This document shows positions 1 to 26,659 of a stretch of DNA of 32,000 nucleotides, piece by piece (position 1 is the first letter of the stretch; every line of letters begins with the position of its first letter). Below the pieces are notes generated by a model that saw only the letters and a program-made list of their open reading frames with translations, ran no database searches and was not told the origin of the DNA. The DNA is taken from assembly GCF_008065095.1 (NCBI RefSeq), contig NZ_CP042911.1, forward strand, positions 3,270,001-3,302,000, given 5' to 3'. Origin of the DNA: Gemmata obscuriglobus (GTDB lineage Bacteria > Planctomycetota > Planctomycetia > Gemmatales > Gemmataceae). A program made the position numbers and the translations under genes.

Positions 1-633
1 CAGCGCGGCCGCCGCTTCGGCTTCCAGTGCCGTGGACATGCCCACGGCGTCGGCCCCGCAAGCGGCGAGCGCGCGGATCTCCGCGGGCGTCTCGTAGCTC
101 GGGCCGGTCAGCGCTGCGTAGAGCCCCGCGAGCAGTTCGCGTCCGCCGGTTCGCTCATGCGCCCCCATGACCTCAATGAGACGCGCGGCGTACGGGCGCA
201 CCGGTCCGTCGCCGGCCGCTAGGCCGCGCCACGCGGCGGGACCGAGGAGCTTGAGGTGCCCTTGAATGGCCATCAGCGAGCCGGGCGCCAGAGCCGGGTT
301 GATGCCGCCGGCCGCGTTCGTGAGGACGAGGCGCCGCGCGCCGAGTTCGGCCGCGGTGCGCACCGTGCCGGTCACGACCTCCCAGGGGTGGCCCTCGTAG
401 AAATGCACCCGGCCTCGGAAGAGCAGAGCCGGCATGCCGCTCCATTCACCGACCGCCAGCGTGCCGCCGTGGCCGTGAACCGACGGCGGAACCAGCCCCG
501 GGACCGCGCCGAACGGCACCGCTGCGCGTTCCACGAACGCGGCGGCGGCGCCGCCCAATCCCGACCCAAGTACGACGGCCGCCCGCGGCGCGAGCGCCGC
601 AGCGGTACGGGCGAACGCGGCGAACGCGACCAT
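1..633 (-). CDS. purine nucleoside phosphorylase (PNP/MTAP family), paralogous copy 1; 3' end runs off the window
   Basis: ATG at 631-633 (complement). Hand translation gives MVAFAAFARTAAALAPRAAVVLGSGLGG...HFYEGHPWEVVTGT...LTNAAGGINP...GPSYETPAEIRALAACGADAVGMST and stays open to position 1. About 95% nt identical, without indels, to the complete PNP gene at 21798-22583. Confidence 0.8.
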   Translation of the reverse strand, partial: MVAFAAFARTAAALAPRAAVVLGSGLGGAAAAFVERAAVPFGAVPGLVPPSVHGHGGTLAVGEWSGMPALLFRGRVHFYEGHPWEVVTGTVRTAAELGARRLVLTNAAGGINPALAPGSLMAIQGHLKLLGPAAWRGLAAGDGPVRPYAARLIEVMGAHERTGGRELLAGLYAALTGPSYETPAEIRALAACGADAVGMSTALEAEAAAAL

Positions 634-1817
634 CAAACGCCCGCCGCCTGGAACAGGGGGGGGCACATCTGCTGCACCTGATCGAAGAGGAACGCCAGGA
701 GCATCAGGTGCGCCAGCACCACCGACAGGTTGTTGTCCCCGTGCCCGAAGTTGTGCTCGAAGTGGTACCCCTGGTTCTTGAGCGTGTTGAACGTCTCGTT
801 CTCGATCCGCCACCGGGCCCGCCCGGCCCGCGCCAGTTGCCGCACGTTGGCCCCGGTGACGGCCATGTCCGTGACCCACGTCCATTCCCGTGGGGTCCCG
901 TCCGGATCGAGTTCCACCAGGTGCACGAAGTTCACCCGCACGTCGTCATTCGACTCGTTCAGCGGCAGATCGGCGATCCACAGGTAGCTGCGGCGGAGCC
1001 CGGTCCGCGGGTCCGCGTTCTCGACGACCTCGAACGCGTGCTGGTCCTGGCGGGCGCACACGTGCGCGAACAGGTGGGCGTGGTCCGCAGCCTTGACACC
1101 CAGGAGGAAATGGCACCTGGCCTTCTGAAGGTCCCGGACGTGGGGTGCATTGCTGCTCCGCGCGTCCTCGACCACGAGAACGGCTAGGTCCGGGTGCTCC
1201 TCGCGGAACCGGCCCAACCACCGCCGGGCCGCGTTCCGCTCGCAGTCGTTCTTGGTCCCCCCGTCGGCCCGCTGGATCGGCTCGGGGGCCAGGGCCAGGA
1301 CCGCGGAGAAGTCCGGATGAACGACCGCGGCCCCGAGCATCTGGTGGTAATACGACACGGCCCCGTTGGCGTGCCGGCGGGTCATGCAATGGGGGCAGTG
1401 GACCTTCTGGGAGCAGAAGTACTCGACCCCGTCCAGGGCCACCACGTAGCACCCGTCCACCCGGTACTCGTCCAAGACGTGAGCCGCCTGCAACCGGGCG
1501 AACACGTCCCGGAACACGGGACGCAGGTGGTCCGGGTCCACGTCGTCGAGGATGGACCGCATCTGGGAGTCGCTGGGCCGGCCCGTGAGGCCGAACACGT
1601 GCCGCAGGTTGTGGTCCAGGGTGCGCCGTTGGAACGCGAGTAGGGACGGGTCCTTGAGGGCGAATAGGGCCAGCCCCGCCATCAGCACGTCGGGCAGCGA
1701 GAACGTGGGCTCGCGGCGTGCGTCCGGGATCGTCTCGAACCGCTCCCGGGCGCACGCGATCAGGGCGTCGGAGTGCAGGTCCTCATATGCACGCGGGGAA
1801 CTGACGGGTATGCTCAT
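633..1817 (-). CDS. DDE transposase (IS4/ISNCY-like), C-terminus apparently truncated and fused to 4 foreign codons
   Basis: ORF 633-1979; likely ATG at 1815-1817 (MSIPVSSPRAYEDLH...). Motifs include VALDGVEYF..CPHC, DCERNAA and RWRIENETFNTLKNQGYHFEHNFGHG, as I recall them from IS4-like DDE transposases. The last codons (AGV-stop) lie in the sequence duplicated at 22583-22595. Confidence 0.7.
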   Translation of the reverse strand: MSIPVSSPRAYEDLHSDALIACARERFETIPDARREPTFSLPDVLMAGLALFALKDPSLLAFQRRTLDHNLRHVFGLTGRPSDSQMRSILDDVDPDHLRPVFRDVFARLQAAHVLDEYRVDGCYVVALDGVEYFCSQKVHCPHCMTRRHANGAVSYYHQMLGAAVVHPDFSAVLALAPEPIQRADGGTKNDCERNAARRWLGRFREEHPDLAVLVVEDARSSNAPHVRDLQKARCHFLLGVKAADHAHLFAHVCARQDQHAFEVVENADPRTGLRRSYLWIADLPLNESNDDVRVNFVHLVELDPDGTPREWTWVTDMAVTGANVRQLARAGRARWRIENETFNTLKNQGYHFEHNFGHGDNNLSVVLAHLMLLAFLFDQVQQMCPPLFQAAGV

Positions 1818-1959
1818 GACCACGCCCCAGCGAGATCCCAGGGCGATACGACAACGGCCGCCTCGGACCGAGCGTACCCCGCTGGGGCCAAAAAGGCTCA
1901 CGAATTCGAGCTTTTCAAGCCGAATCTCGCTCGCCGGGAATTGCTGAACCGTTGGCGTT
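646..1959. mobile_element. IS remnant carrying the DDE transposase, inserted into an older IS5-family element; left end probably truncated
   Basis: The right boundary is inferred from where the IS5-type N-terminal reading frame loses similarity (after ..DIIDAVFYI, about 1960). The left boundary is where homology to 22583-22595 begins (645/646). I could find no terminal inverted repeats. Confidence 0.45.
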
Positions 1960-2115
1960 GATGTAGAAGACGGCATCAATGATATCTTTGATCGGAATCG
2001 TCTGGCGACGCCCGCGACCCGTGTTCGGCGGGAACATCGGCTCCAGGAGCGTCCATTGATCGGCCGTTAGATCACTGCTATACGACTTGCGAGCTGATGT
2101 ATTCGTGCCAAACAT
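1960..2115 (-). pseudogene. IS5-family transposase N-terminal fragment (DUF4096-type), interrupted
   Basis: MFGTNTSARKSYSSDLTADQWTLLEPMFPPNTGRGRRQTIPIKDIIDAVFYI matches the recalled pattern SDLTDEQW.L.EPL.PP...GRPR....R.I.NAI.Y.LRTGCQWR. Similarity stops at about 1960. Confidence 0.6.
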
Positions 2116-4217: not shown

Positions 4218-4645
4218 GTTCGCGCCTGCCCGGTTCTCTCTGCCCTGCCTGTCTCCCACCACTGATGCATGTCGGAGTGAGCGGAAACGGCGTGGTGGTG
4301 TGCGATTTTGGCACGCCGCTTCCCGACAGATGGCACGTACCGCCCGGCGCAGTAAAGCCGGCGCGGGAAACTGCTTTTCCGCTCCTTGGCGCCGCCGATC
4401 GCACTCGCGCCTCGGGCATTTTTCCCCCTCCTTTTTCACTCGCTGCACTTCCCGATGTCCGAATCATGCCTTCTGGGGCAGTTGGCAGCGGTGCTCCCGT
4501 CCGACGGTTGGCGTCGCAGGCGCGTGGTAAATATGCCGCAAGAGTCGCCATATCAAGATGTTGCGCCACGATATCTGGGAGCCGTTGGGATCTCGGGCGA
4601 CTCGCCCGACGATTGTAACTGGGGCTCAAAGCAGTGGATTCGTGG

Positions 4646-4722
4646 GTAGCGATCGCCCAGCGAATGGGTAGTCCGATGCCCGTTAACTGCCAGCGAATGT
4701 CCTGTCGGCCACCCAGCGGATC
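4646..4722. repeat. array of about 7 degenerate 11-bp tandem repeats (consensus about CCAGCGAATNN / CCAGTCCGNNT)
   Basis: Phased 11-mers from 4646: gtagcgatcgc / ccagcgaatgg / gtagtccgatg / cccgttaactg / ccagcgaatgt / cctgtcggcca / cccagcggatc. Homologous to the array at 14041-14106. Confidence 0.65.
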
Positions 4723-5075
4723 GCCCACATGCCATAGGAGAGCCCGTTGCACCGCCGGGCCGGTCAAGAACAGTGGGACCGCCCGAGTGGTTCTCGGACG
4801 CGGCTCTTGCGGTAGGCCGGCAAACGGTTGGAATTTCTCGTGCATCAAACTACTGATGGCAGCGCGGGTACACCCGAGTTAGGCCGTGTACCACGATGGG
4901 TGCCACAGGTACGACCGCACTCGTCGCGATCAGCCCTTCAGCCGCTCGACCCATGATTACCGGCACGGCACGTGCATGGGCCACCAACTCACTGTCAGCT
5001 TACGGCGAGTGGTTGTCACCAGAGGGTTCCGGCCGATGTTCCCGGCCGGGACCGATTCGTGCCGCAAAGACCGAG

Positions 5076-6143
5076 ATGATGATGCGAAGAAAGTGGCTTC
5101 TGGTCGCTCTTGCGCTCGCGGGCTGTGGCGCCGCGTACCTCGGCTGGAAGGCGCTCCGACCCAGGCCGTTACCGGAGGGTTTCGCCAGCAGCAACGGCCG
5201 TATTGAGGCGGTCGAGATCGACGTAGCCGCGAAGACCGCTGGTCGGCTCAAAGAGGTACTGGTAAACGAAGGCGATTTTGTCACCGCCGGCCAGGTGCTC
5301 GCCCGGATGGACACCGAGGTGCTCGCGGCGCAACTTCGTGAGGCCGAAGCGGACTCGCGCAAGGCAAAGAGCGCGGTCGACACCGCCAAGAGCACTGTCG
5401 TACAGCGGGAGAGCGAGAAAGCGGCCGGGCTGTCGGTCGTCGCCCAGCGCGAGGCCGAATTCGACGGGGCGAAACGGACCCGCACGCGGGCGGAGGCCAT
5501 GTCTGCCCAGGGCGTCGGTTCGGCCGAAGTGCTCGACGGCGCCCGCGTCCAGTTCTTCAGCTCGGAAGCGGCCGTCAAAGCCGCTCGGGCGAACGTCGCT
5601 GCCGCGGACGCGGCCATCGCCACGGCCCGGTCGCAGGTGATTCAGGCCGAGGCGACGGTGGACGCGGCCAAATCCCGGATCGAGCGGCTTCAGGCGGACA
5701 TCGATGACAGCACGCTTCGCGCCCCGCGCGACGGCCGGGTGCAGTACCGGGTCGCTCAACCCGGTGAGGTGCTCGCGGCCGGCGGCAAGGTGCTGAACAT
5801 GGTCGACCTCGGCGACGTGTACATGACGTTCTTCCTACCGACCGCGGACGCCGGCCGGGCGCGAATGGGGACCGAGGTTCACATCGTTCTCGACGCGGCC
5901 CCGCAGTTCGTTATCCCGGCCCGCGTCTCATACGTCGCGGACGTGGCCCAGTTCACCCCGAAGACGGTCGAGACGGCGCAGGAGCGCCAGAAGCTGATGT
6001 TCCGCATCAAGGCGCGAATCGATCCGGACCTGCTCAAGAAGCACATCAACCGCGTCAAGACCGGGTTGCCGGGGGTAGCCTACGCCCAACTCGATCCCGG
6101 GGCCGAATGGCCCGCGGACATCCGGGTGAGGTTGCCGGAATGA
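5076..6143 (+). CDS. HlyD-family membrane fusion (periplasmic adaptor) protein, YhiI/YbhG-like
   Basis: Start [17 protein letters not shown] (TM/signal anchor), a long coiled-coil, and the C-terminal motif [27 protein letters not shown] typical of the YbhG/YhiI group. Its stop overlaps the next start (ATGA at 6140-6143). Confidence 0.85.
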
Positions 6144-8962
6144 CCAGCCCCCAACCGCAACCGAGCCCGGCGCCGGCGGCCCGGCTAACCGGAGTCAGTT
6201 TGACATACGGCGGGACCCGCGCGCTCGACGCCGTCACCCTGGACCTGCCGGCCGGGCGAACCGTCGGCCTGATCGGCCCCGACGGGGTCGGCAAGTCCAG
6301 CCTGTTGGCGCTGGTTGCCGGCCTGCGCCGAGTTCAGGCGGGGCGCGTGGAGGTGCTCGGCGGCAACATGGCCGACGCCGGGCACCGCGGCCGGGCGTGC
6401 CCCCGGATCGCCTACATGCCGCAGGGGCTGGGCAAGAACCTGTACCCGACCCTGTCGGTGTTCGAGAACGTCGACTTCTTCGGCCGACTGTTCGGCCACG
6501 CCCGCGCGGAGCGCCGCCGCCGCATCACGGAACTGCTGGCGGGGACCGGGCTGATACCGTTCGCCGATCGCCCCGCCGGCAAGCTGTCCGGCGGGATGAA
6601 GCAGAAACTCGGCTTGTGTTGCGCGCTGATTCACGACCCGGACCTGCTCATCCTGGACGAGCCGACGACGGGCGTGGACCCGCTCTCCCGCCGCCAGTTC
6701 TGGGAGCTGATTGACCGCATCCGGGGCGACCGGCCGGGGCTGACCGCGCTGGTGGCGACCGCGTACATGGACGAGGCCGCCCGGTTCGACTGGCTGGTGG
6801 CGATGGACGCCGGCCGGGTGCTCGCCACCGGCACCCCGGCGGAGCTGCTCGCCCGGACCGCGACCCCGTCGCTGGAGGCGGCTTTCGTCGCGCTGCTCCC
6901 GGAGGAGCGACGCCGCAGCCACCGGGAGGTGGTCATCCCGCCGCGGGCCGGTGCGGGCGAAGTGGCCATTGAGGCGGTCGAGCTCACGAAAGCGTTCGGC
7001 GCGTTCGTCGCCGTGGACCGGGTGAACTTCCGGATCGAGCGGGGGGAGATCTTCGGCTTTCTCGGCTCCAACGGGTGCGGCAAGACGACGACCATGAAGG
7101 TCCTGACCGGGCTGCTCCCGGCCAGCGGCGGCACGGCCCGGCTGCTCGGGCGGCCGGTCGACGCTGGCGACATCGAAACCCGCCGGCGGGTCGGCTACAT
7201 GTCGCAGGCCTTCTCGCTGTACAGCGAACTGACGGTGCGGCAGAACCTCGTGCTGCACGCCCGGCTGTTTCAGGTCCCCGGGGACGAGATTCCGGGGCGG
7301 GTCGCCGAGCTGGTCGAGCGGTTCGGCTTGGGTGAAGCCGTTGACGCGCTGCCGGACGCGCTCCCGCTCGGTCAGCGGCAGCGGCTGTCGCTGGCCGTCG
7401 CCCTCGTCCATCGACCCGAGTTGCTGATCCTCGACGAGCCGACTTCCGGCGTCGATCCGATCGCCCGGGACGGGTTCTGGCAGCTCCTGGCCGATCTGTC
7501 GCGCCGGGACCGGGTGACGATTTTCGTTTCCACTCACTTCGTGAACGAGGCGGCCCGGTGCGACCGCATCTCGCTCATGCACGCCGGGCGGGTGCTGGTC
7601 AGCGACACCCCGGCCGGGCTGGTCGCGGTGAGCGGTGCGGCGTCGCTCGAAGACGCCTTCATCGGCTACCTGGAAGAGGCCGCGGCCCAGGCCCCGGGGG
7701 CCGGTAGCACGAACCCGGGGGCGGCTCGCGGTCGGGAACCTGAAGGCCCGCCGGCCCCTCGCCGCGATGGTGCCGTGGCTGCCGGCCCCCGCTCTTTACC
7801 TCCCACTTCCCGCCCATCCTTGAGCGCTGCCCCCTGGTTCAGCGGTCAGCGGATGGTGAGTTACGCCCGCCGCGAGGCGCTCGAACTCCGGCGCGACCCG
7901 GTTCGCGCGGCTACGGCCCTGCTCGGCAGCGTGGCCCTGATGCTCATTATGGGCTACGGGATCAGTATGGATGTCGAGAACCTGCCCTTCGGCGTGCTGG
8001 ACCGCGACCAGACCGCCGCCAGCCGCGACTACGCCCTGAACCTGGCGGGGTCGCGGTACTTCGCCGAGCGGCCCGCGGTGGCCGACTACGACGAGGCGGA
8101 CCGGCGCATGCAGTCGGGCGAACTCAGCGTCGTGATCGAGATCCCGCCCGACTTCGGGCGCGACCTGGAACGGGGCCGGGCCGTGCAGATCGGGGTTTGG
8201 GTGGACGGGGCCATGCCGTCCCGGGGCGAGACCGCCCGCAGCTACGTCCAGGGCGCCCACGCACAGTGGCAGGCCGATGTGGCCCGCCGCCGCCTCGGCG
8301 TGCGCGGCGCGTCCGCCCCCGCCACGATCGAGACGCGGTTCCGGTACAACCCGGACGTGAAGAGCGTCGTGGCGATGGTTCCGGGCGTGATCCCGCTGTT
8401 GTTGCAGCTCATCCCGGCCGTGCTTGTGTCGCTGTCTGTGGTTCGGGAGAAGGAGCTGGGGTCGGTCATCAACTTCTACGCCACCCCGACGACCCGGCTG
8501 GAGTTCCTGCTCGGCAAGCAGCTCCCGTACATCGCCCTGGGGATGCTCAACTTCCTGCTGCTGGCCCTGCTGGCGGTCACGGCGTTCCGGGTGCCGTTCA
8601 CCGGCAGCTTCGCCGCCCTGACCGCCGGTGCGGTGCTCTACGTCGGCTGCGCGACCGCGCTGGGCGCGCTCATCTCCGTGTTCATGCGGAGCCAGGTCGC
8701 GGCCGTCTTCGGCACGGCGGTGCTCACCATCCTGCCCGCCGTTTCGTTCTCCGGGATGATCGACCCGGTGTCGTCCCTGGAGGGCGCCGGGGCGTGGATC
8801 GGCCGCGTCTACCCGACCGCCCACTTCCTGACCATTTCCCGCGGGACGTTCTCCAAGGCCCTCGGGTTCGCCGACCTGACCGCCCCGTTCCTGGCGCTGA
8901 TCGTCGCGTTCCCGGTGCTGATCGGGCTGGCCGCGGCGCTGTTGCGAAAACAGGAGGCCTGA
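6140..8962 (+). CDS. fused ABC protein: two ATPase domains plus a C-terminal ABC-2 permease domain (RbbA/YhiH-like architecture)
   Basis: Two Walker A sites ([18 protein letters not shown]), two signature motifs (LSGGMKQK; a degenerate second one, LPLGQRQR) and two Walker B sites (LLILDEPT twice). A low-complexity linker is followed by about 370 aa with multiple hydrophobic helices. Confidence 0.85.
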
Positions 8963-8965
8963 CCG

Positions 8966-10087
8966 ATGCGCGCCGGGACCGTCTGGCACTTGGGCGTCAA
9001 GGAGCTGTGGAGCCTGGCCCGCGACCCGATGCTGCTCGGGCTCATCGCCTTCAGCTTCACGGTGTCGGTCTACGCGGGGGCGACGGCCCAGCCGGAGACG
9101 CTCAACAAGGCGCCGATCGCGGTGGTGGACTACGACCGGTCGCCGCTGTCCGAGCGCATCACCGCTGCGTTCTACCCGCCGCAGTTCCTGCCGCCGGCCC
9201 GGATCACCCCGGACGAAATGGATGCCCGCATGGACGCCGGCCGGGACACGTTCGCGCTGGTGGTCCCGCCCGACTTCCAGCGCGACGTGCTCGCCGGGCG
9301 GCGGCCGGCGGTCCAGCTCAACGTCGACGCGACGCGCATGAGCCAGGCGTACACCGGCAGCGGGTACGTCGAGACGATCACCAGCGGGGAGGTCCGTGCG
9401 TTCGCCGACCGGTACCGAGCGAACCCGGCCCCGCCGGTGGACATGGCCGTGCGGGCGCGGTTCAACCCGGAGCTGAACAAGTCGTGGTTCGGAGCGGTCG
9501 TGAAGCTGATCGACAACGTGAACCTGCTGGCGATCGCGCTGGCCGGGGCCGCCCTGATCCGGGAGCGGGAGCGGGGCACGATCGAGCACCTGCTGGTGAT
9601 GCCGGTGACCCCGTTCGAGATCATGACCGGCAAGGTGTGGTCGATGGGACTGGTGGTGCTGTTCGCGTGCGCACTGTCGCTGCGGGTCGTTGTGCAGGGG
9701 GCGCTTGGGGTGCCGGTCGGGGGCTCGCGGGCACTGTTCCTCTGCGGCGTCGCGCTGCACCTGTTTGCCGCCACGTCGATCGGCATCTTCATGGGCACGT
9801 TCGCCCGCTCGATGCCGCAGTTCGGGCTGCTGCTGATGATGGTGGTGCTGCCGCTCCAGATGTTGTCCGGCGGGGTGACGCCCCGCGAGAGCATGCCCGG
9901 GTGGGTGCAAACGGTGATGCTGGCGGCCCCCACCACACACTTCGTGGCCCTGTCCCAGGGCATCCTCTACCGCGGCGCGGGGCTGTCGGTCGTGTGGCCG
10001 CAGTTCCTCGCGCTCGCACTGATCGGGACGACGTTCTTTGGCGTGACGCTGGCGCGGTTCCGTAAGGTCATCGGCACGATGGCTTGA
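8966..10087 (+). CDS. ABC-2 type transporter permease (YhhJ/YbhR-like)
   Basis: ATG lies 3 nt after the preceding stop. One N-terminal TM helix, a large loop and then a cluster of C-terminal TM helices, paralogous to the C-terminal domain of the preceding gene. Confidence 0.85.
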   Translation: MRAGTVWHLGVKELWSLARDPMLLGLIAFSFTVSVYAGATAQPETLNKAPIAVVDYDRSPLSERITAAFYPPQFLPPARITPDEMDARMDAGRDTFALVVPPDFQRDVLAGRRPAVQLNVDATRMSQAYTGSGYVETITSGEVRAFADRYRANPAPPVDMAVRARFNPELNKSWFGAVVKLIDNVNLLAIALAGAALIRERERGTIEHLLVMPVTPFEIMTGKVWSMGLVVLFACALSLRVVVQGALGVPVGGSRALFLCGVALHLFAATSIGIFMGTFARSMPQFGLLLMMVVLPLQMLSGGVTPRESMPGWVQTVMLAAPTTHFVALSQGILYRGAGLSVVWPQFLALALIGTTFFGVTLARFRKVIGTMA

Positions 10088-13414: not shown

Positions 13415-13816
13415 ATGTCAGCCGACGCGCGTGAGGGTCCCGTCAAGCCACTGCGCGTTCTGGTGGTGGATGACGACGCCGATACGCTCGACTCGCAGCT
13501 CGACCTGCTCGGGCTGTGCGGGTTCGCGGTCGGCACTGCGGCTGATGGCGAGGAGGCACTTCGGACCGTTTTGGCCGATCGGCCCGATGTGGTTGTGACG
13601 GATTTGCGGATGCCGCGGTGCTCCGGGAGCGAACTGGCGCGCCGGGTGTCCGCGGCGGGGCTCTCGCCGCGCCCGTTTCTGGTGGCGGCGACCGGGTGCC
13701 AAGGCACCATGCTCCGGGAGGCCGAACAGGCCGGGTTCGATCTGATACTGATGAAGCCCGTCGAACCGGCGGTGCTGGTCGGGTTGCTCCGCCGGATCGA
13801 GCGCGCCCTTCACTAA
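13415..13816 (+). CDS. single-domain response regulator (CheY-like receiver)
   Basis: LRVLVVDDDADT, phospho-acceptor context VVVTDLRMP and a C-terminal LMKP. AAGGAG lies 7 nt upstream of the ATG. Confidence 0.85.
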   Translation: MSADAREGPVKPLRVLVVDDDADTLDSQLDLLGLCGFAVGTAADGEEALRTVLADRPDVVVTDLRMPRCSGSELARRVSAAGLSPRPFLVAATGCQGTMLREAEQAGFDLILMKPVEPAVLVGLLRRIERALH

Positions 13817-14040
13817 CCGGCTTTGCTGTCGCGGCTTTTTGGTCGGCACATCGAGCGTCCTGTCCGAATCGCACTTTCAGAAACCAAAACCCATCGGCTG
13901 TCTCTGACGCCCGGTTCCCGTCAGAGGCGGACGATTTTACCCGCGTCAATTGCTGCAAGCGATTTGGTGATAGTGCTTTGCGACTCTATTATGCCGGATC
14001 GCCTTGGGGTGGCGGTTCGGAGAAATCGCGTGATTCGGTG

Positions 14041-14106
14041 GTAGCGATGTACCAGCGAATCGCCAGTCCGGGTACAGCAGATGTCCAGTCGGCGACCAGT
14101 CCGAGT
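14041..14106. repeat. array of six degenerate 11-bp tandem repeats
   Basis: Exactly phased 11-mers: gtagcgatgta / ccagcgaatcg / ccagtccgggt / acagcagatgt / ccagtcggcga / ccagtccgagt. The region 14032-14070 matches 4637-4675 at 31 of 39 ungapped positions (hand count). Confidence 0.7.
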
Positions 14107-14349
14107 GCCACCGACGCCGCACCGACTTTCCCATACTCGCAGCCCTGTGATGTGAGCCACGTGCCCAATTCATCTGAAAAGCGACACGCGCCGCGACTGA
14201 AGCGGGGCGAAGCCGAGATCCAAATTCCGCCGGTTGGAAACGGCCCAGATTGAATCCTCGCGCCCGCTACTGTCCAGATGGCACCCGCGTTGACGAGCGA
14301 TTGCGTACCGGGTATGCGGGCGGCCATCGTACAACCCGAGGGGGGCCGC

Positions 14350-14718
14350 ATGCGGTCGCTCGCCCGATTCGCTCTTCTCGCCGCACTCGGCTCCGGGTGC
14401 CTCACGCCTTGGAACGCTCCGTCGGCGGATGCTGTGGTCATCACTCAAAGGGGGAACACCACCACCCTCGGCGTTGCTTCGCACGAAGTCATGTACCCGA
14501 TCCCGTTCGTGTCGCCGCCCGTTCTGGAGGTGGACCCCGCGGACAAGGCGACCATCCTGCACTTGGAAGAGAAGGCCGATCGGTTCGTGGTCACCGCCGC
14601 TCCCGTTGAGGTGTGGCGAACGAGCACGACGCTCAAGTGGAAAGCCACGGGTTCCGTACCGCGGTCTGCGGCTGTTGTGGGGTTGGTGTTCCCGGACGCA
14701 TCATCCCCGAGGCGGTAA
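14350..14718 (+). CDS. hypothetical secreted protein or lipoprotein
   Basis: MRSLARFALLAALGSGC has a signal peptide with a lipobox-like LGSGC. I recognise no domain. Confidence 0.5.
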   Translation: MRSLARFALLAALGSGCLTPWNAPSADAVVITQRGNTTTLGVASHEVMYPIPFVSPPVLEVDPADKATILHLEEKADRFVVTAAPVEVWRTSTTLKWKATGSVPRSAAVVGLVFPDASSPRR

Positions 14719-18124: not shown

Positions 18125-18162
18125 TGACGAGCCGCGACCGCCAGGGTAATGGCACTCGTTTT
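18125..18162. repeat. degenerate copy of the palindromic element found at 18286-18333
   Basis: gacgagccgcgaccgccagggtaatggcactcgtttt aligns with aacgagtgccattaaccgccaggacgcggttaatggcactcgtttt. The right arm is nearly intact and the left arm is decayed. Confidence 0.55.
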
Positions 18163-18232: not shown

Positions 18233-19387
18233 TCAGACTTCCCAAACGCAGCGCACAAGTGAACACTGAGAACATAAAACGAGTGCCATTAACCGCCAGG
18301 ACGCGGTTAATGGCACTCGTTTTGACACTTTAGCAGCGAGAGTGCAGGGATTGGGGTTCCTTGCGTGGAACCGGCCGATTTTTGAGCCATCGCGCCGAAG
18401 ACCGCGCCCGATGGAGGCCGTGAAGGGTTTGGGTGCGTCGGGTGGCGTCAGGCGGCGGTGCTCGAAAAGCTCGGCCACATCCGCCTTTTGGCGCGTCGTC
18501 ATCCGTCGCGCCGGGGCGGCGTCCTGTTTGCGGGGGCGACCACGCTTGCGCGTGCGGATCGGCGCCAGGACGTGCTTACGCACGTGAGTCAACGCACGCG
18601 GGACGGCCTGATTGATCTCCTTGAGGATATGGAACACGCAGAGCGGGTGCGGCACGCCCGGCCAGCGTTGCGAAAGGACGGCCGGGTACCGCGACGAGCC
18701 ATCGGTGGTAATGCCCTGCACACGCTTGCCACGGGCGCCCAGTTGGCCCTTAACGTCCGCCCGAAAGATCCGGACATCGGCGTGGGTCGGGTCGTGTTCG
18801 AGGACACAACAGGCCAGGCGGTTGTACCGGCGGTTGTCCACAACTGAAAGGATGCAGAAGGGGCCGTCATCGACTTCGTCGATGGCCACGTAACCGGAGA
18901 ACTGCGCCAGGGCGTCGTCGAGGTAGGTGGTCCGACGTGTCGCCACCTTTTTCCCCCTTCGCCACGATCCAGAACCGGGTCGTGGCGAAGGGGACAAGAC
19001 CCGGTGATCCCGCCACAGATTCCAACTGGCGGTTTGATAGGGGAGTCCGTCCTCGCACACCAGGCGCACGGCCAGATCCTGGACGCGCCGGGTGTACAGG
19101 CACTTGGGGCGCGCCAGGTCCGTGAGGTCCACGGCGAAGCACCGGCCACAGGAGAGGCACCGGTGTCTGGAGAAGGTCACGACCAGATCGACGGGGCGTC
19201 CGGTGCGTGGGTCGCCCAGATCGTGCAACGTGCGGGTATCGGTGGTGCAACGGCCGGCCGCGTGGTTGCAACGCGGGCACCGACGCGAACGGACGTTACG
19301 TGTGCGCCGGTGGATGTGCGGTTGGGGGAGATCTTCGACCTGGGTAATCCCCTCAGTGGGGTCCGGAGTGTATTCGCCGGGAGCCAT
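18233..19387 (-). pseudogene. ISL3-like zinc-finger/DDE transposase, probably C-terminally deleted; ORF reads out through the IS end
   Basis: CPRCNH...RHRCLSCGRCF (zf-ISL3-like), YVAIDEVDDGPFCILSVVDN and GITTDGSSRYP...CVFHILKE (the first two acidic-residue motifs). There is no stop inside the element, so the last 34 codons are flanking DNA including the 18286-18333 hairpin. Confidence 0.55.
18286..18333. repeat. perfect 21-bp-stem palindromic element (loop 6 nt)
   Basis: aaaacgagtgccattaaccgc (18286-18306) is the exact reverse complement of gcggttaatggcactcgtttt (18313-18333). It directly abuts the IS end at 18334. Confidence 0.85.
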
Positions 19388-19466
19388 TGGCACTTCTCCA
19401 CAACGGTCCCTACGCCTTGTTAGAGGGTCGAACCGCCAATGGATGCAATCCCGCTGCTAAAGTGTC
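18334..19466. mobile_element. IS element (ISL3-like), 1133 bp, with imperfect terminal inverted repeats
   Basis: gacactttagcagcgagagtgcagggattgg (18334-18364) versus the reverse complement of ccaatggatgcaatcccgctgctaaagtgtc (19436-19466): 26 of 31 match and the outer 15 are perfect. I saw no target-site duplication. Confidence 0.65.
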
Positions 19467-20126: not shown

Positions 20127-20177
20127 GAAGCTGAAGGGATAAATGACGCAACCCATGCTATTTGCAGGGGTTGCGAG

Positions 20178-20250
20178 TGGAGCGAATGAGAGTCGAACTC
20201 ACGGCCTCTTCGTTGCGAACGAAGCGCTCTACCAACTGAGCTATCGCCCC
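20178..20250 (-). tRNA. tRNA-Ala (anticodon CGC)
   Basis: Hand-folded cloverleaf: acceptor GGGGCGA/TCGCTCC with the G3:U70 alanine identity pair, D arm GCTC-AGTTGGTA-GAGC, anticodon arm CTTCG-TTCGCAA-CGAAG, T arm GTGAG-TTCGACT-CTCAT. 73 nt; CCA not encoded. Confidence 0.95.
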
Positions 20251-21797: not shown

Positions 21798-22583
21798 TCA
21801 GTACGGAGCGCGAATGAGCGCCCCGAGTAACGCCCCCAGTCGGTCAACGGCCAGGGCGGCGTTCGTCAACACCTCGGCGTGATCGAGCGCTGTCCCTCCG
21901 ATCCCGGCGGCCTTGTTCGTGACGCACGAAATTGCCGCCACTTCGAGCCCGCGTGCGGCTGCCGCTTCGGCTTCCAGCGCTGTGGACATGCCCACGGCGT
22001 CGGCCCCGCAAGCGGCGAGCGCGCGGATCTCCGCGGGGGTCTCGTAGCTCGGGCCGGTCAGCGCTGCGTAGAGCCCCGCGAGCAGTTCGCGTCCGCCGGC
22101 GCGCTCGTGCGCCCGCATGACCTCAATGAGTCGCGCGGCGTACGGGCGCACCGATCCGTCGCCGGCCGCCAGGCCGCGCCACGCGGCGGGGCCGAGGAGC
22201 TTGAGGTGTCCTCGAATCGCCATCAGCGCACCAGGCGACAGAGCCGGGTTGATGCCGCCCGCGGCGTTCGTGAGGACGAGGCGCCGCGCGCCGAGTTCGG
22301 CCGCGGTGCGCACCGTGCCGGTCACGACCTCCCAGGGGTGGCCCTCGTAGAAATGCACCCGGCCTCGAACGAGCAGGGCCGGGACGCCGCCCCACTCGCC
22401 GACCGCCAGCGTGCCGCCGTGGCCGTGAACCGACGGCGGAACCAGCCCCGGGACGGCGCCGAACGGCACCGCTGCGCGTTCCACGAACGCGGCGGCGGCG
22501 CCGCCCAATCCCGACCCAAGCACGACGGCCGCCCGCGGCGCGAGCGCCGCAGCGGTACGGGCGAACGCGGCGAACGCGGCCAT
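21798..22583 (-). CDS. purine nucleoside phosphorylase (PNP/MTAP family), complete copy 2
   Basis: 261 aa: MAAFAAFARTAAALAPRAAVVLGSGLGG..., HFYEGH, LTNAAGGINP, GPSYETPAE, GADAVGMST, ISCVTNKAAG. The start overlaps the upstream stop (TGATG). Confidence 0.9.
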   Translation of the reverse strand: MAAFAAFARTAAALAPRAAVVLGSGLGGAAAAFVERAAVPFGAVPGLVPPSVHGHGGTLAVGEWGGVPALLVRGRVHFYEGHPWEVVTGTVRTAAELGARRLVLTNAAGGINPALSPGALMAIRGHLKLLGPAAWRGLAAGDGSVRPYAARLIEVMRAHERAGGRELLAGLYAALTGPSYETPAEIRALAACGADAVGMSTALEAEAAAARGLEVAAISCVTNKAAGIGGTALDHAEVLTNAALAVDRLGALLGALIRAPY

Positions 22584-23335
22584 CAAACGCCCGCCAGGTC
22601 GTCGAGGTCGGTGAACGGGCTCGGCGGGCTGCTCTCCGCGATCTCCGCGAACATCTGCTTGGTCCGCACGGCCCAGCCGATGAACTGGGCCGCCCCTTCG
22701 ACGCCGAGCCGCTCGGCGTTCACCACCGCGTCGTAGGCGGTCGGGTCCGCGGCGTCGCGCGCGAGCGTGCGGTCGAGGAACAGTGCGCGGCGCTCGTCCC
22801 GGGCGCGCACCTCTTCGGCGGCTTCGGGCCGGGTGAGTCGGAGTTCCTGGGCCAAATACGCGATCCGCGCCTCGGTCGGCGCGATGACGCGGACGTGTAC
22901 GGTGGTCTCGGGCGGCAGCAGGAACCCGGCGGCCCGCCCCACGATCACGGCGTTCCCGCGGGCCGCGACCGTCAGCACGAGCCGGATCAGCGGGAGCACC
23001 TCCGGGTCCGCGTTCAACTTGTGGTCGCGCTGGAGGTGTTCGAGCTGCGCGTCGGCCCACGCCCGCGCATCGCCGGGCACGTCGGCCAACAGTTGCGCGC
23101 GGGCGTCGTCGTTTTGAACGAGGTAATCGAGCGTGTCGTGGTCGAACACCTGCCACGTGAGGATGTCGGCGACCTTTTTCGCGATTTCGGTGCCGCGCGA
23201 CCCCGCCTGCCGGCTGATCGCAACCGTCAGCCCCCGCGGGTGCGTGAGCGGGCCGTCCGGGGCGTCACCACGGAACCCGTGGACCGGTGCGCCCTGAAGC
23301 TCGAACGGGATCGAAACGGGAGACGGAGGGGGCAT
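22583..23335 (-). CDS. cytidylate kinase-like family protein (Cytidylate_kin2-type)
   Basis: TVAISRQAGSRGTEIAKKVADIL fits the degenerate P-loop-like ISRE.GSGG..IA motif of that family. Start set at ATG 23333-23335, 8 nt after the upstream stop. An alternative at 23383 would overlap that gene by 40 nt. Confidence 0.7.
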   Translation of the reverse strand: MPPPSPVSIPFELQGAPVHGFRGDAPDGPLTHPRGLTVAISRQAGSRGTEIAKKVADILTWQVFDHDTLDYLVQNDDARAQLLADVPGDARAWADAQLEHLQRDHKLNADPEVLPLIRLVLTVAARGNAVIVGRAAGFLLPPETTVHVRVIAPTEARIAYLAQELRLTRPEAAEEVRARDERRALFLDRTLARDAADPTAYDAVVNAERLGVEGAAQFIGWAVRTKQMFAEIAESSPPSPFTDLDDLAGV

Positions 23336-26593: not shown

Positions 26594-26659
26594 CACCCGC
26601 CCGGTGACGCATGCGGTTCGACCAGTCACGGTCGAACCGCATGCGTCACCGGGCGGGTG
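26594..26659. repeat. perfect 29-bp-stem hairpin/palindrome with 8-nt loop, intergenic inside the ABC cluster
   Basis: cacccgcccggtgacgcatgcggttcgac (26594-26622) is the exact reverse complement of gtcgaaccgcatgcgtcaccgggcgggtg (26631-26659). Verified base by base. Confidence 0.9.

What the first reader, a model, noticed from the sequence alone, without database searches (positions are those of the whole stretch)
14032..14117. Second, cleaner copy of the 11-bp array, between the response regulator and a small lipoprotein gene
There are six exactly phased units: gtagcgatgta / ccagcgaatcg / ccagtccgggt / acagcagatgt / ccagtcggcga / ccagtccgagt. The dinucleotide AG recurs at 14043, 14054, 14065, 14076, 14087 and 14098. 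The array lies in a 530-bp lower-GC spacer downstream of a single-domain response regulator and about 250 bp upstream of a lipoprotein gene, with a soluble GAF histidine kinase convergent just beyond. The regulator has no DNA-binding output domain, so it cannot obviously read the array itself. An unidentified DNA-binding factor may therefore co-regulate this locus and the transporter operon at 5076-10087. Weaker similarity between the two spacers continues downstream (for example cggttggaa at 14232-14240 and 4824-4832).
Basis: seen in the sequence. Interest (0 to 1): 0.65.

Follow-up and report, generated by a model that had tools for sequence, protein, structure and literature searches.

The report
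Phased 11-bp core of Gemmata repeat
The 11-bp array is real and is the conserved core of a small non-coding repeat found in several unrelated gene spacers of Gemmata obscuriglobus and G. algarum; it most likely acts as a multi-site docking platform for a DNA-binding protein, not as a switch private to these two operons.

Summary
Six in-phase 11-bp units lie at 14041-14106, preceded by one inverted unit, and this is far beyond chance. The array is homologous to the one at 4635-4735.

The window comes from Gemmata obscuriglobus (CP025958.1). The same roughly 100-bp array occurs at six distinct, unrelated intergenic loci in G. obscuriglobus and G. algarum. In four copies it sits inside a colinear element of about 350 bp. 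The copy in this finding keeps only the core.

At the aspartokinase-PQQ spacer, three related Gemmata genomes have a spacer 260-330 bp shorter and no element. Orthologous HlyD upstream regions in other Gemmataceae also lack it. It therefore arrived by insertion or duplication and is not an ancestral operator.

It is not coding, matches no Rfam family, and shows no conserved RNA fold. Each unit carries a 5-bp S-Y-A-G-Y motif once per helical turn. Between orthologs the core is 93.7% identical against 86.2% for the rest of the spacers (p=0.004).

Best reading: a lineage-specific dispersed repeat whose core is a helically phased platform for cooperative protein binding. The binding protein is unknown.

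The parts
14030..14040 (+). Inverted unit GTGATTCGGTG. Its reverse complement resembles the CCAGCGAATCG unit. It forms a 10-bp imperfect inverted repeat with 14052-14061.
   Evidence: Sequence. GATTCG at -8 is present in 4 of 6 paralogs. Predicted hairpin with no covariation.
14041..14106 (+). Six direct 11-bp units: GTAGCGATGTA, CCAGCGAATCG, CCAGTCCGGGT, ACAGCAGATGT, CCAGTCGGCGA, CCAGTCCGAGT. This is the core of the repeat family (copy 2).
   Evidence: Unit logo S-Y-A-G-Y from 39 units. nhmmer E=6e-26 to the family profile.
14107..14128 (+). Two degenerate trailing units (GCCACCGACGC, CGCACCGACTT).
   Evidence: Sequence. Covered by the family profile hit 14029-14126.
4635..4735 (+). Paralogous array (copy 1). 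It has the same unit order, plus one extra 11-bp unit and one 12-bp unit.
4416..4465 (+). Block A of the extended element at copy 1. It is a pyrimidine-rich left end, GCATTTTTCCCCCTCC...GTCCGAATC.
   Evidence: Colinear with L003 and L019 at the same offset from the array. Leave-one-out flank profile E=5.5e-8.
4535..4575 (+). Block B of the extended element at copy 1 (YAAK-N12-YAAR-N-TKTTRCR).
4736..4759 (+). Degenerate right-end block at copy 1. It is related to the CTGTAAC-N4-GTTACAGCGCC hairpin of L003, L058 and L009.
   Evidence: Weak, judged by eye and from the MAFFT alignment.

Best explanation
The array at 14030-14128 is one copy of the conserved core (about 100 bp) of a low-copy, non-coding repeat. 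The repeat is dispersed through intergenic spacers of the Gemmata obscuriglobus / G. algarum lineage.

In its fuller form the element is about 350 bp. It has a pyrimidine-rich left block, a middle block, the array, and a right-end hairpin. The copy in this finding retains only the core.

The element reached these spacers by insertion or duplication, not by descent of an old operator.

The core has one inverted unit followed by 6-8 direct units. Each unit shows a 5-bp S-Y-A-G-Y motif every 11 bp, that is, once per helical turn.

My proposed mechanism is that the array works at the DNA level. A sequence-specific protein nucleates on the high-information units (GATTCG...GGTAGCGAT...CCAGCGAAT). 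It then extends cooperatively along one face of the helix over the weaker CCAGTCSG units. The result is a nucleoprotein complex of about 70-90 bp that can act on neighbouring genes as a distal regulatory or architectural site.

Shown: the array is real, homologous between copies, dispersed, variably present between species, non-coding, and more conserved than its surroundings. Inferred: protein binding, the DNA level of action, and any effect on neighbouring genes. The protein is unidentified.
For: Family and dispersal. The core pattern is found at 4 further G. algarum loci, none a duplicate of the window copies. Profile hits range from E=1e-19 to 1e-26. A third G. obscuriglobus copy lies at the aspartokinase-PQQ spacer.

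Extended element. Flank-only leave-one-out profiles find the left-out copy at the expected place for win1 (5.5e-8), L003 (2.4e-12), L009 (7e-5) and L019 (1.3e-6).

Insertion. The AK-PQQ spacer is 604 bp with the element in G. obscuriglobus and G. algarum. It is 274, 274 and 341 bp without it in G. massiliana, a MAG and a third relative. HlyD orthologs at 79-84% aa identity lack it.

Phasing. Lag 11 is the top lag in 4 of 6 paralogs. In the unit logo, A at position 3 occurs in 34/39 units and G at position 4 in 37/39. Phased motif runs occur nowhere else in about 165 kb.

Constraint. In two orthologous pairs the core is 178/190 identical, against 782/907 for the rest of the spacers (Fisher p=0.0036). 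Among paralogs only the core is BLAST-significant.

Not coding. Copies differ by 11- and 12-nt indels, and the frames disagree at block B (sequence).

Not a known or structured RNA. There is no Rfam hit. The alifold energy is -4 to -5 kcal/mol with no covariation. The fold z-scores are -0.6 and -1.6.

Precedent. 11-bp phased direct repeats are bound cooperatively by OmpR/PhoB-type regulators (PMC2275107, PMC3798270) and by ParR on R1 parC (PMC2241845).
Against: No binding protein is identified, and none is encoded next to any copy.

Orientation relative to neighbouring genes is not fixed. The right-hand neighbour is codirectional in 4 of 6 copies and convergent in 2 of 6.

The array is 180-250 bp from the likely lipoprotein promoter, not on it.

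Individual CCAG units are not invariant between orthologs (CCAG to CCCG, ACAG to GCAG).

The conservation test rests on only two orthologous pairs at about 90% identity.

Four of the six paralogs were found using the core pattern itself, so conservation of that 18-mer among them is partly due to how they were found.

The same paralog pattern would arise if the core were the binding site of a mobilising enzyme and had no host function.
Confidence: 0.5

Rival explanations
1. Mobile-element reading. The array is the subterminal binding site of the transposase or recombinase that spread a non-autonomous element, and it has no host function where it sits.
For: The family is dispersed and low-copy and is always intergenic. 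It is present in some species and absent in others at the AK-PQQ spacer. The core lies near the right end, next to a terminal hairpin. Conservation of only the core among old paralogs is what selection on a master copy would give.
Against: There are no terminal inverted repeats and no second, inverted array within 8 kb of any copy. No target-site duplication was seen (and by eye). No transposase lies next to any copy. There is no match in the plasmid, viral or metagenome collections. The core is more conserved than the flanks between orthologs, which argues for constraint in place.
Confidence: 0.2
2. The array is an operator shared by a regulon, through which one transcription factor co-regulates the RR-lipoprotein locus and the HlyD-ABC operon.
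For: The arrays are homologous and both lie upstream of, and co-oriented with, a downstream operon. The phased direct-repeat architecture matches known response-regulator operators (PMC2275107, PMC3798270).
Against: The other four distinct loci have functionally unrelated neighbours. One copy lies between convergent genes and one is inverted. Orthologous HlyD operons lack the array but keep a different palindrome. The copies share colinear flanks, so they arose by copying a DNA segment, not by convergence of binding sites. The array is distant from the probable promoters.
Confidence: 0.12
3. RNA-level reading. The element is transcribed, and the unstructured array presents 6-8 evenly spaced YAG/YC motifs to a multimeric RNA-binding protein, acting as a sponge, a leader, or a Rho-loading site.
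For: The array region is predicted to be largely unpaired. A hairpin follows the array in L003, L058 and L009. Weak sigma-70-like hexamers lie upstream in two copies. Ring proteins that read spaced triplets or YC dimers are known (TRAP, Rho; from my own knowledge).
Against: There is no conserved promoter across copies. The hairpin has no U-tract and is missing in most copies. There is no Rfam match and no covariation. The C/G ratio is 0.94-1.38, which is not G-poor. An exact 11-nt period fits the DNA helical repeat better than any known RNA-binding register.
Confidence: 0.1
4. Neutral relic. An ancestral 11-bp tandem duplication was carried around by chance segmental copying and now has no function.
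For: The units are degenerate and TRF does not call the array. Some CCAG units mutate between orthologs.
Against: Core conservation exceeds that of the flanks both among paralogs and between orthologs (p=0.0036). The order of unit types is kept in all six paralogs.
Confidence: 0.07

Closest known systems
Multi-repeat operators of OmpR/PhoB-family response regulators (Streptomyces PhoP PHO boxes made of 11-nt DRus; E. coli ArcA boxes)
   Same: Both are head-to-tail direct repeats with an 11-bp period. The informative bases occupy the first 5-7 positions of each unit. Arrays run from 2 up to 8 units, with strong core units plus weaker extension units that are filled cooperatively (PMC2275107, PMC3798270).
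   Different: The sequence motif is unrelated (S-Y-A-G-Y against GTTCAY and others). The array carries an extra inverted unit. It sits 180-250 bp from the likely promoter. It belongs to a copied DNA segment of about 350 bp found at unrelated loci, one of them between convergent genes. The neighbouring regulator has no winged-helix domain.
Plasmid R1 centromere parC (two sets of five 11-bp iterons bound by ParR dimers)
   Same: Both have 11-bp direct iterons, about five or more per set, each taking one protein dimer to form a continuous nucleoprotein structure that also represses a promoter (PMC2241845).
   Different: The site is chromosomal and multi-copy. No parR/parM-like genes are adjacent. 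There is a single array rather than two sets flanking a promoter. There is no sequence similarity to plasmids.
Small dispersed intergenic repeats of bacteria (MITEs, BOX, ERIC, REP/BIME)
   Same: The element is short (about 100-350 bp), non-coding, confined to intergenic spacers, multi-copy and lineage-specific. It has modular blocks with a variable number of internal units, and its presence varies between related genomes.
   Different: No terminal inverted repeats or target duplications were found. The copy number appears low (six distinct loci found). The conserved part is an internal 11-bp phased array rather than a palindrome or the termini.

Membership tests
OmpR/PhoB-type direct-repeat operator | Tandem direct repeats with 10-11 bp centre-to-centre spacing | tested here: met
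   11-bp period, 6-8 units.
OmpR/PhoB-type direct-repeat operator | Site overlaps or closely adjoins the promoter of the regulated gene | tested here: inconclusive
   The array ends about 180 bp before the candidate -35 at 14290. One paralog lies between convergent genes. No TSS data are available.
OmpR/PhoB-type direct-repeat operator | A cognate winged-helix regulator binds the repeats | not testable with these tools
   The adjacent regulator is receiver-only. No binding data exist.
ParR/parC type II centromere | 11-bp iterons next to parR-parM genes, in two sets flanking the par promoter | tested here: not met
   There is a single array. The neighbours are RR, lipoprotein, FHA and HlyD genes. 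No plasmid similarity.
MITE (non-autonomous TIR transposon) | Terminal inverted repeats | tested here: not met
   The ends GCATTTYCC... and ...GTTACAGCGCC are not inverted copies of each other. No inverted partner of the core lies within any locus.
MITE (non-autonomous TIR transposon) | Target-site duplication | tested here: inconclusive
   None was seen. The empty-site spacers are too diverged to place the junctions exactly.
MITE (non-autonomous TIR transposon) | Short, non-coding, dispersed, with presence varying between relatives | tested here: met
IS200/IS605-derived palindrome-associated element | Subterminal hairpins at both ends, with related tnpA/tnpB copies in the genome | tested here: inconclusive
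   A hairpin is found only at the right end, and only in L003, L058 and L009. The genome could not be scanned for a parent element.
REP/BIME | 20-40-bp GC-rich palindromes in high copy number | tested here: not met
   The core is a direct-repeat array. The only palindrome occurs solely with the element.
Any Rfam RNA family | Covariance-model match | tested here: not met
   No hit at gathering score or at E<=5 over either spacer, apart from a chance snoRNA match at E=2.7.
Protein-coding gene | Reading frame conserved between copies | tested here: not met
   Copies differ by 11- and 12-nt indels. The ORFs ending at the TAG of GGTAGCGAT read block B in different frames. Spacer GC is 60.6%, against 67-72% in genes.
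Rho utilisation (rut) site | C-rich, G-poor unstructured RNA | tested here: not met
   C/G ratio is 0.94-1.38.

The most novel reading that the evidence does not exclude
A Gemmata-specific DNA-binding protein recognises S-Y-A-G-Y motifs set 11 bp apart and polymerises over about 80 bp. Its binding platform was spread by a small mobile element, wiring unrelated operons (an efflux ABC transporter, MoxR ATPases, a two-component locus, aspartokinase) into one lineage-specific regulatory or architectural network. This would be a bacterial case of a regulon built by a transposable element.
Probability: 0.15. Interest if true: 0.7.

Novelty: new variant of a known kind. Interest (0 to 1): 0.45.

Why it matters
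Planctomycete gene regulation and genome repeats are almost uncharted, and Gemmata obscuriglobus is one of the few genetically tractable members.

A repeat whose conserved part is a helically phased array, and which evolves more slowly than its surroundings, gives a concrete handle for study. A 90-bp probe could be used to fish out an unknown DNA-binding protein.

Presence in some Gemmata species and absence in others offers natural with/without comparisons for neighbouring gene expression.

If the element proves to be only a decaying insertion, the result still corrects a tempting mistake, namely reading shared upstream repeats as evidence of co-regulation.

Tried and rejected
Rfam. No hit at gathering score over the whole window or at E<=5 over both spacers.

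RNA consensus folds. Folds of the core and of the roughly 360-nt element gave negligible energy and no covariation. Single-sequence folds were no better than shuffles.

Coding. Rejected because of 11/12-nt indels and inconsistent frames.

TRF. It does not call the array because the units are too diverged.

Sigma-70 scan. No promoter conserved across copies.

Sigma-54 scan. The hits are at background density. The 10/12 match at 4961 is really a palindrome whose spacing varies in orthologs.

Rut-like C>G skew. Absent.

TIRs, target-site duplication and a second array. Not found.

Metagenome, viral and plasmid collections. Only chance or coding hits to the pattern, and no family members. Most genome hits outside Gemmata fall in a conserved coding motif; from memory this is the GH15 '...DSLVYRY' motif, which I did not test.

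At chance level.

Upstream blocks A and B. These could not be verified for the copy in this finding.

Literature. Searches found no description of Gemmata repeats and no usable transcriptome.

Limits.

Full report
**Observation**

The six 11-bp units are GTAGCGATGTA, CCAGCGAATCG, CCAGTCCGGGT, ACAGCAGATGT, CCAGTCGGCGA and CCAGTCCGAGT, with AG at 14043 + 11n.

Lag-11 self-identity is 0.44, against 0.26+-0.05 in shuffles. It is the strongest lag between 3 and 24, with p=0.008 after correcting for the choice of lag. The region is the second most 11-periodic 77-bp stretch in the 32-kb window.

The two spacers align locally with score 40, against 22.5+-2.4 (maximum 30) for 300 dinucleotide-preserving shuffles. 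They share GGTAGCGATNNNCCAGCGAAT, which occurs exactly twice in the window where 0.02 is expected.

The context is as described:
- a receiver-only response regulator at 13415-13816;
- a 122-aa protein with a signal peptide and an approximate lipobox, and no Pfam match, at 14350-14718;
- a convergent GAF-HisKA-HATPase kinase;
- an HlyD / ABC / ABC-2 operon at 5076-10087.

The spacer is 60.6% GC, against 67.3% for the window.

**Source and relatives**

The lipoprotein sequence places the window in Gemmata obscuriglobus CP025958.1.

A scan of one genome per species for the 18 specified bases of the core returned 35 loci. Four are in Gemmata algarum JC673 (L003, L009, L019, L030). All four show the same run of 11-bp units, and none is a duplicate of the window copies. 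The other hits fall in unrelated sequence, mostly a conserved coding motif.

A profile built from the six copies recovers each at E=1e-19 to 1e-26 and finds nothing else in the held DNA.

The orthologous RR-lipoprotein spacer of G. algarum JC673 and JC717 keeps the array with one mismatch in the core pattern. G. obscuriglobus also carries the L003 copy.

That makes six distinct loci: three seen in G. obscuriglobus and five in G. algarum.

Scans of metagenome and viral collections and a BLAST search of plasmids gave no further members.

**Anatomy**

All copies keep the same order of unit types:
1. an inverted unit containing GATTCG;
2. GTAGCGAT;
3. CCAGCGAAT;
4. CCAGTCSG;
5. zero or one extra unit;
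6. CCAGCRRATGT;
7. CCAGTCGGCG;
8. CCAGTCSGA.

Copies differ by indels of whole units, of 11 or 12 nt.

A logo of 39 units shows information only at positions 1-5, S-Y-A-G-Y. A occurs at position 3 in 34/39 units and G at position 4 in 37/39.

Across about 165 kb of Gemmataceae DNA (330,830 strand-positions), every site with at least 4 of 6 such motifs in 11-bp register belongs to this family. The motif frequency is 0.0069 per position.

Outside the core, four copies (window 4416-4759, L003, L009, L019) share colinear blocks at the same distance from the array:
- a pyrimidine-rich left block ending in GTCCGAATC, at about -230 to -175;
- a middle block at about -105 to -65;
- in L003, L058 and L009, a right-end hairpin CTGTAAC-N4-GTTACAG.

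Leave-one-out profiles built only from the flank (-250 to -31) find the omitted copy at the expected place:

| Copy | E-value |
|---|---|
| win1 | 5.5e-8 |
| L003 | 2.4e-12 |
| L009 | 7e-5 |
| L019 | 1.3e-6 |
| L030 | 0.05 |
| copy in this finding (win2) | not detected |

So the 14040 copy is a core-only or strongly diverged copy.

**How it got there**

The spacer between aspartokinase and a PQQ-type protein is 604 bp and holds the element in G. obscuriglobus and G. algarum. In G. massiliana, in a MAG with 87% identical aspartokinase, and in a contig with 93% identical aspartokinase, the spacer is 274, 274 and 341 bp. No element is present, although the gene-proximal ends still align.

Orthologous HlyD operons at 79-84% aa identity in other Gemmataceae lack the array. 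They keep a different palindrome, which is also present at window 4957-4977.

The copies therefore arose by insertion or duplication of a DNA segment in the G. obscuriglobus/G. algarum lineage, not by descent of an old operator.

I found no terminal inverted repeats, no target duplication, no second array and no neighbouring transposase.

**What it is not**

It is not coding. The unit indels break any frame. The ORFs that end at the TAG inside GGTAGCGAT read the middle block in different frames. The GC content is spacer-like.

It is not a known RNA.

It shows no conserved fold. Only the GATTCG/CGAATC hairpin is predicted, it has no covariation, and it is broken in L019. The consensus energies are -4 to -5 kcal/mol, and the single-sequence z-scores are -0.6 and -1.6.

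No promoter is conserved across copies. Sigma-54-like matches are at background density. The array is not G-poor.

**Evidence of constraint**

Among paralogs only the core is BLAST-significant. The flanks have drifted to the edge of detection while keeping their spacing.

Between orthologs (G. obscuriglobus against G. algarum, two loci), the core is 178/190 identical (93.7%). This is similar to the adjacent genes at 92-93%. The rest of the spacers is 782/907 identical (86.2%), giving Fisher p=0.0036.

This is modest evidence from two pairs, but it points to selection acting where the element sits.

**Mechanism**

A 5-bp motif repeated once per helical turn, in direct orientation over 70-90 bp, is the geometry used by proteins that bind side by side on one face of DNA. 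The pattern of strong units at one end and weaker ones following fits this too.

Documented examples:
- PhoP on 11-nt DRus, with 2-8 units per operator and core plus extension units (PMC2275107);
- ArcA on 2-5 direct repeats at 11-bp spacing (PMC3798270);
- ParR dimers on the 11-bp iterons of R1 parC (PMC2241845).

I therefore favour a DNA-level cooperative binding platform, at about 0.5. The binding protein, and any effect on neighbours, are inferred and not shown.

The main rival, at about 0.2, is that the same platform served only the enzyme that mobilised the element.

- four further distinct loci carry the element;
- one copy lies between convergent genes and one is inverted;
- the array is absent from orthologous HlyD operons;
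- the array lies 180-250 bp from the probable lipoprotein promoter, TTGACG-N17-TATGCG at 14290-14318, whose -35 is conserved even in a distant ortholog that lacks the array.

**Novelty and verdict**

I found no description of this repeat in the searchable literature, and no library match.

It fits the general class of small dispersed intergenic repeats, but its conserved part is an internal helically phased array rather than termini or a palindrome. I rate it a new variant of a known kind, with interest 0.45.

The finding is real, robust and testable. It is lineage-restricted, appears low-copy, and has no demonstrated function.

Noticed in passing
window 5-~630 and 21955-~22580; 633-1979 (-): A stretch of about 600 bp is duplicated at 94% identity. 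The second copy lies inside a PNP_UDP_1 phosphorylase gene (21798-23156, -). The copy at the window start abuts a DDE transposase ORF, which suggests a paralog interrupted or bordered by an IS.
   Followed up: partly
window 4957-4977: A palindrome TTACCGGCACG-GCA-CGTGCAT lies about 100 bp upstream of the HlyD start. It is conserved, with a variable loop, in the orthologous spacers of L062 and L045. It is a better candidate than the array for the ancestral operator or leader hairpin of the efflux operon. It also scores 10/12 against the sigma-54 consensus, but the spacing is not conserved.
   Followed up: partly
window 14290-14318: A sigma-70-like TTGACG-N17-TATGCG ends 32 bp before the lipoprotein ATG. 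The TTGAC and the following GTGCCGG are conserved even in the distant ortholog L042, which lacks the array.
   Followed up: partly
window 4416-4440 (minus strand): Read on the minus strand, the left end of element copy 1 is AAGGAGG-N7-ATG, in frame with the FHA-domain gene. The gene may therefore start at 4419 rather than 4107. Similar purine-rich + ATG ends occur in L009 and L019, where no gene follows.
   Followed up: partly
L003 3876-3893, L058 4255-4272, L009 3954-3971: The right-end hairpin CTGTAAC-CCCC-GTTACAG (L003, L058) appears as CTGTAAC-GGGG-GTTACAG in L009, with identical flanks. The loop is inverted, as expected from template switching within a hairpin.
   Followed up: no
window 26594-26659: A perfect 30-nt inverted repeat with a 6-nt loop lies between two ABC-transporter gene sets.
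   Followed up: no
window 18324-18354 / 19436-19466 and 18132-18162 / 18276-18306: Two pairs of 31-nt inverted repeats (84% and 81% complementary) lie around an unannotated 386-aa ORF (18233-19393, -) with no Pfam match. These may be the ends of a small mobile element.
   Followed up: no
L009 4106-6225 and L030 3312-5230: Two different MoxR-DUF58 operons of G. algarum each have a copy of the element upstream, one in direct and one in inverted orientation. This may be coincidence or a hint at a preferred neighbourhood.
   Followed up: no
window 20177-20250 (-): tRNA-Ala (CGC), the only RNA gene detected in the window.
   Followed up: yes
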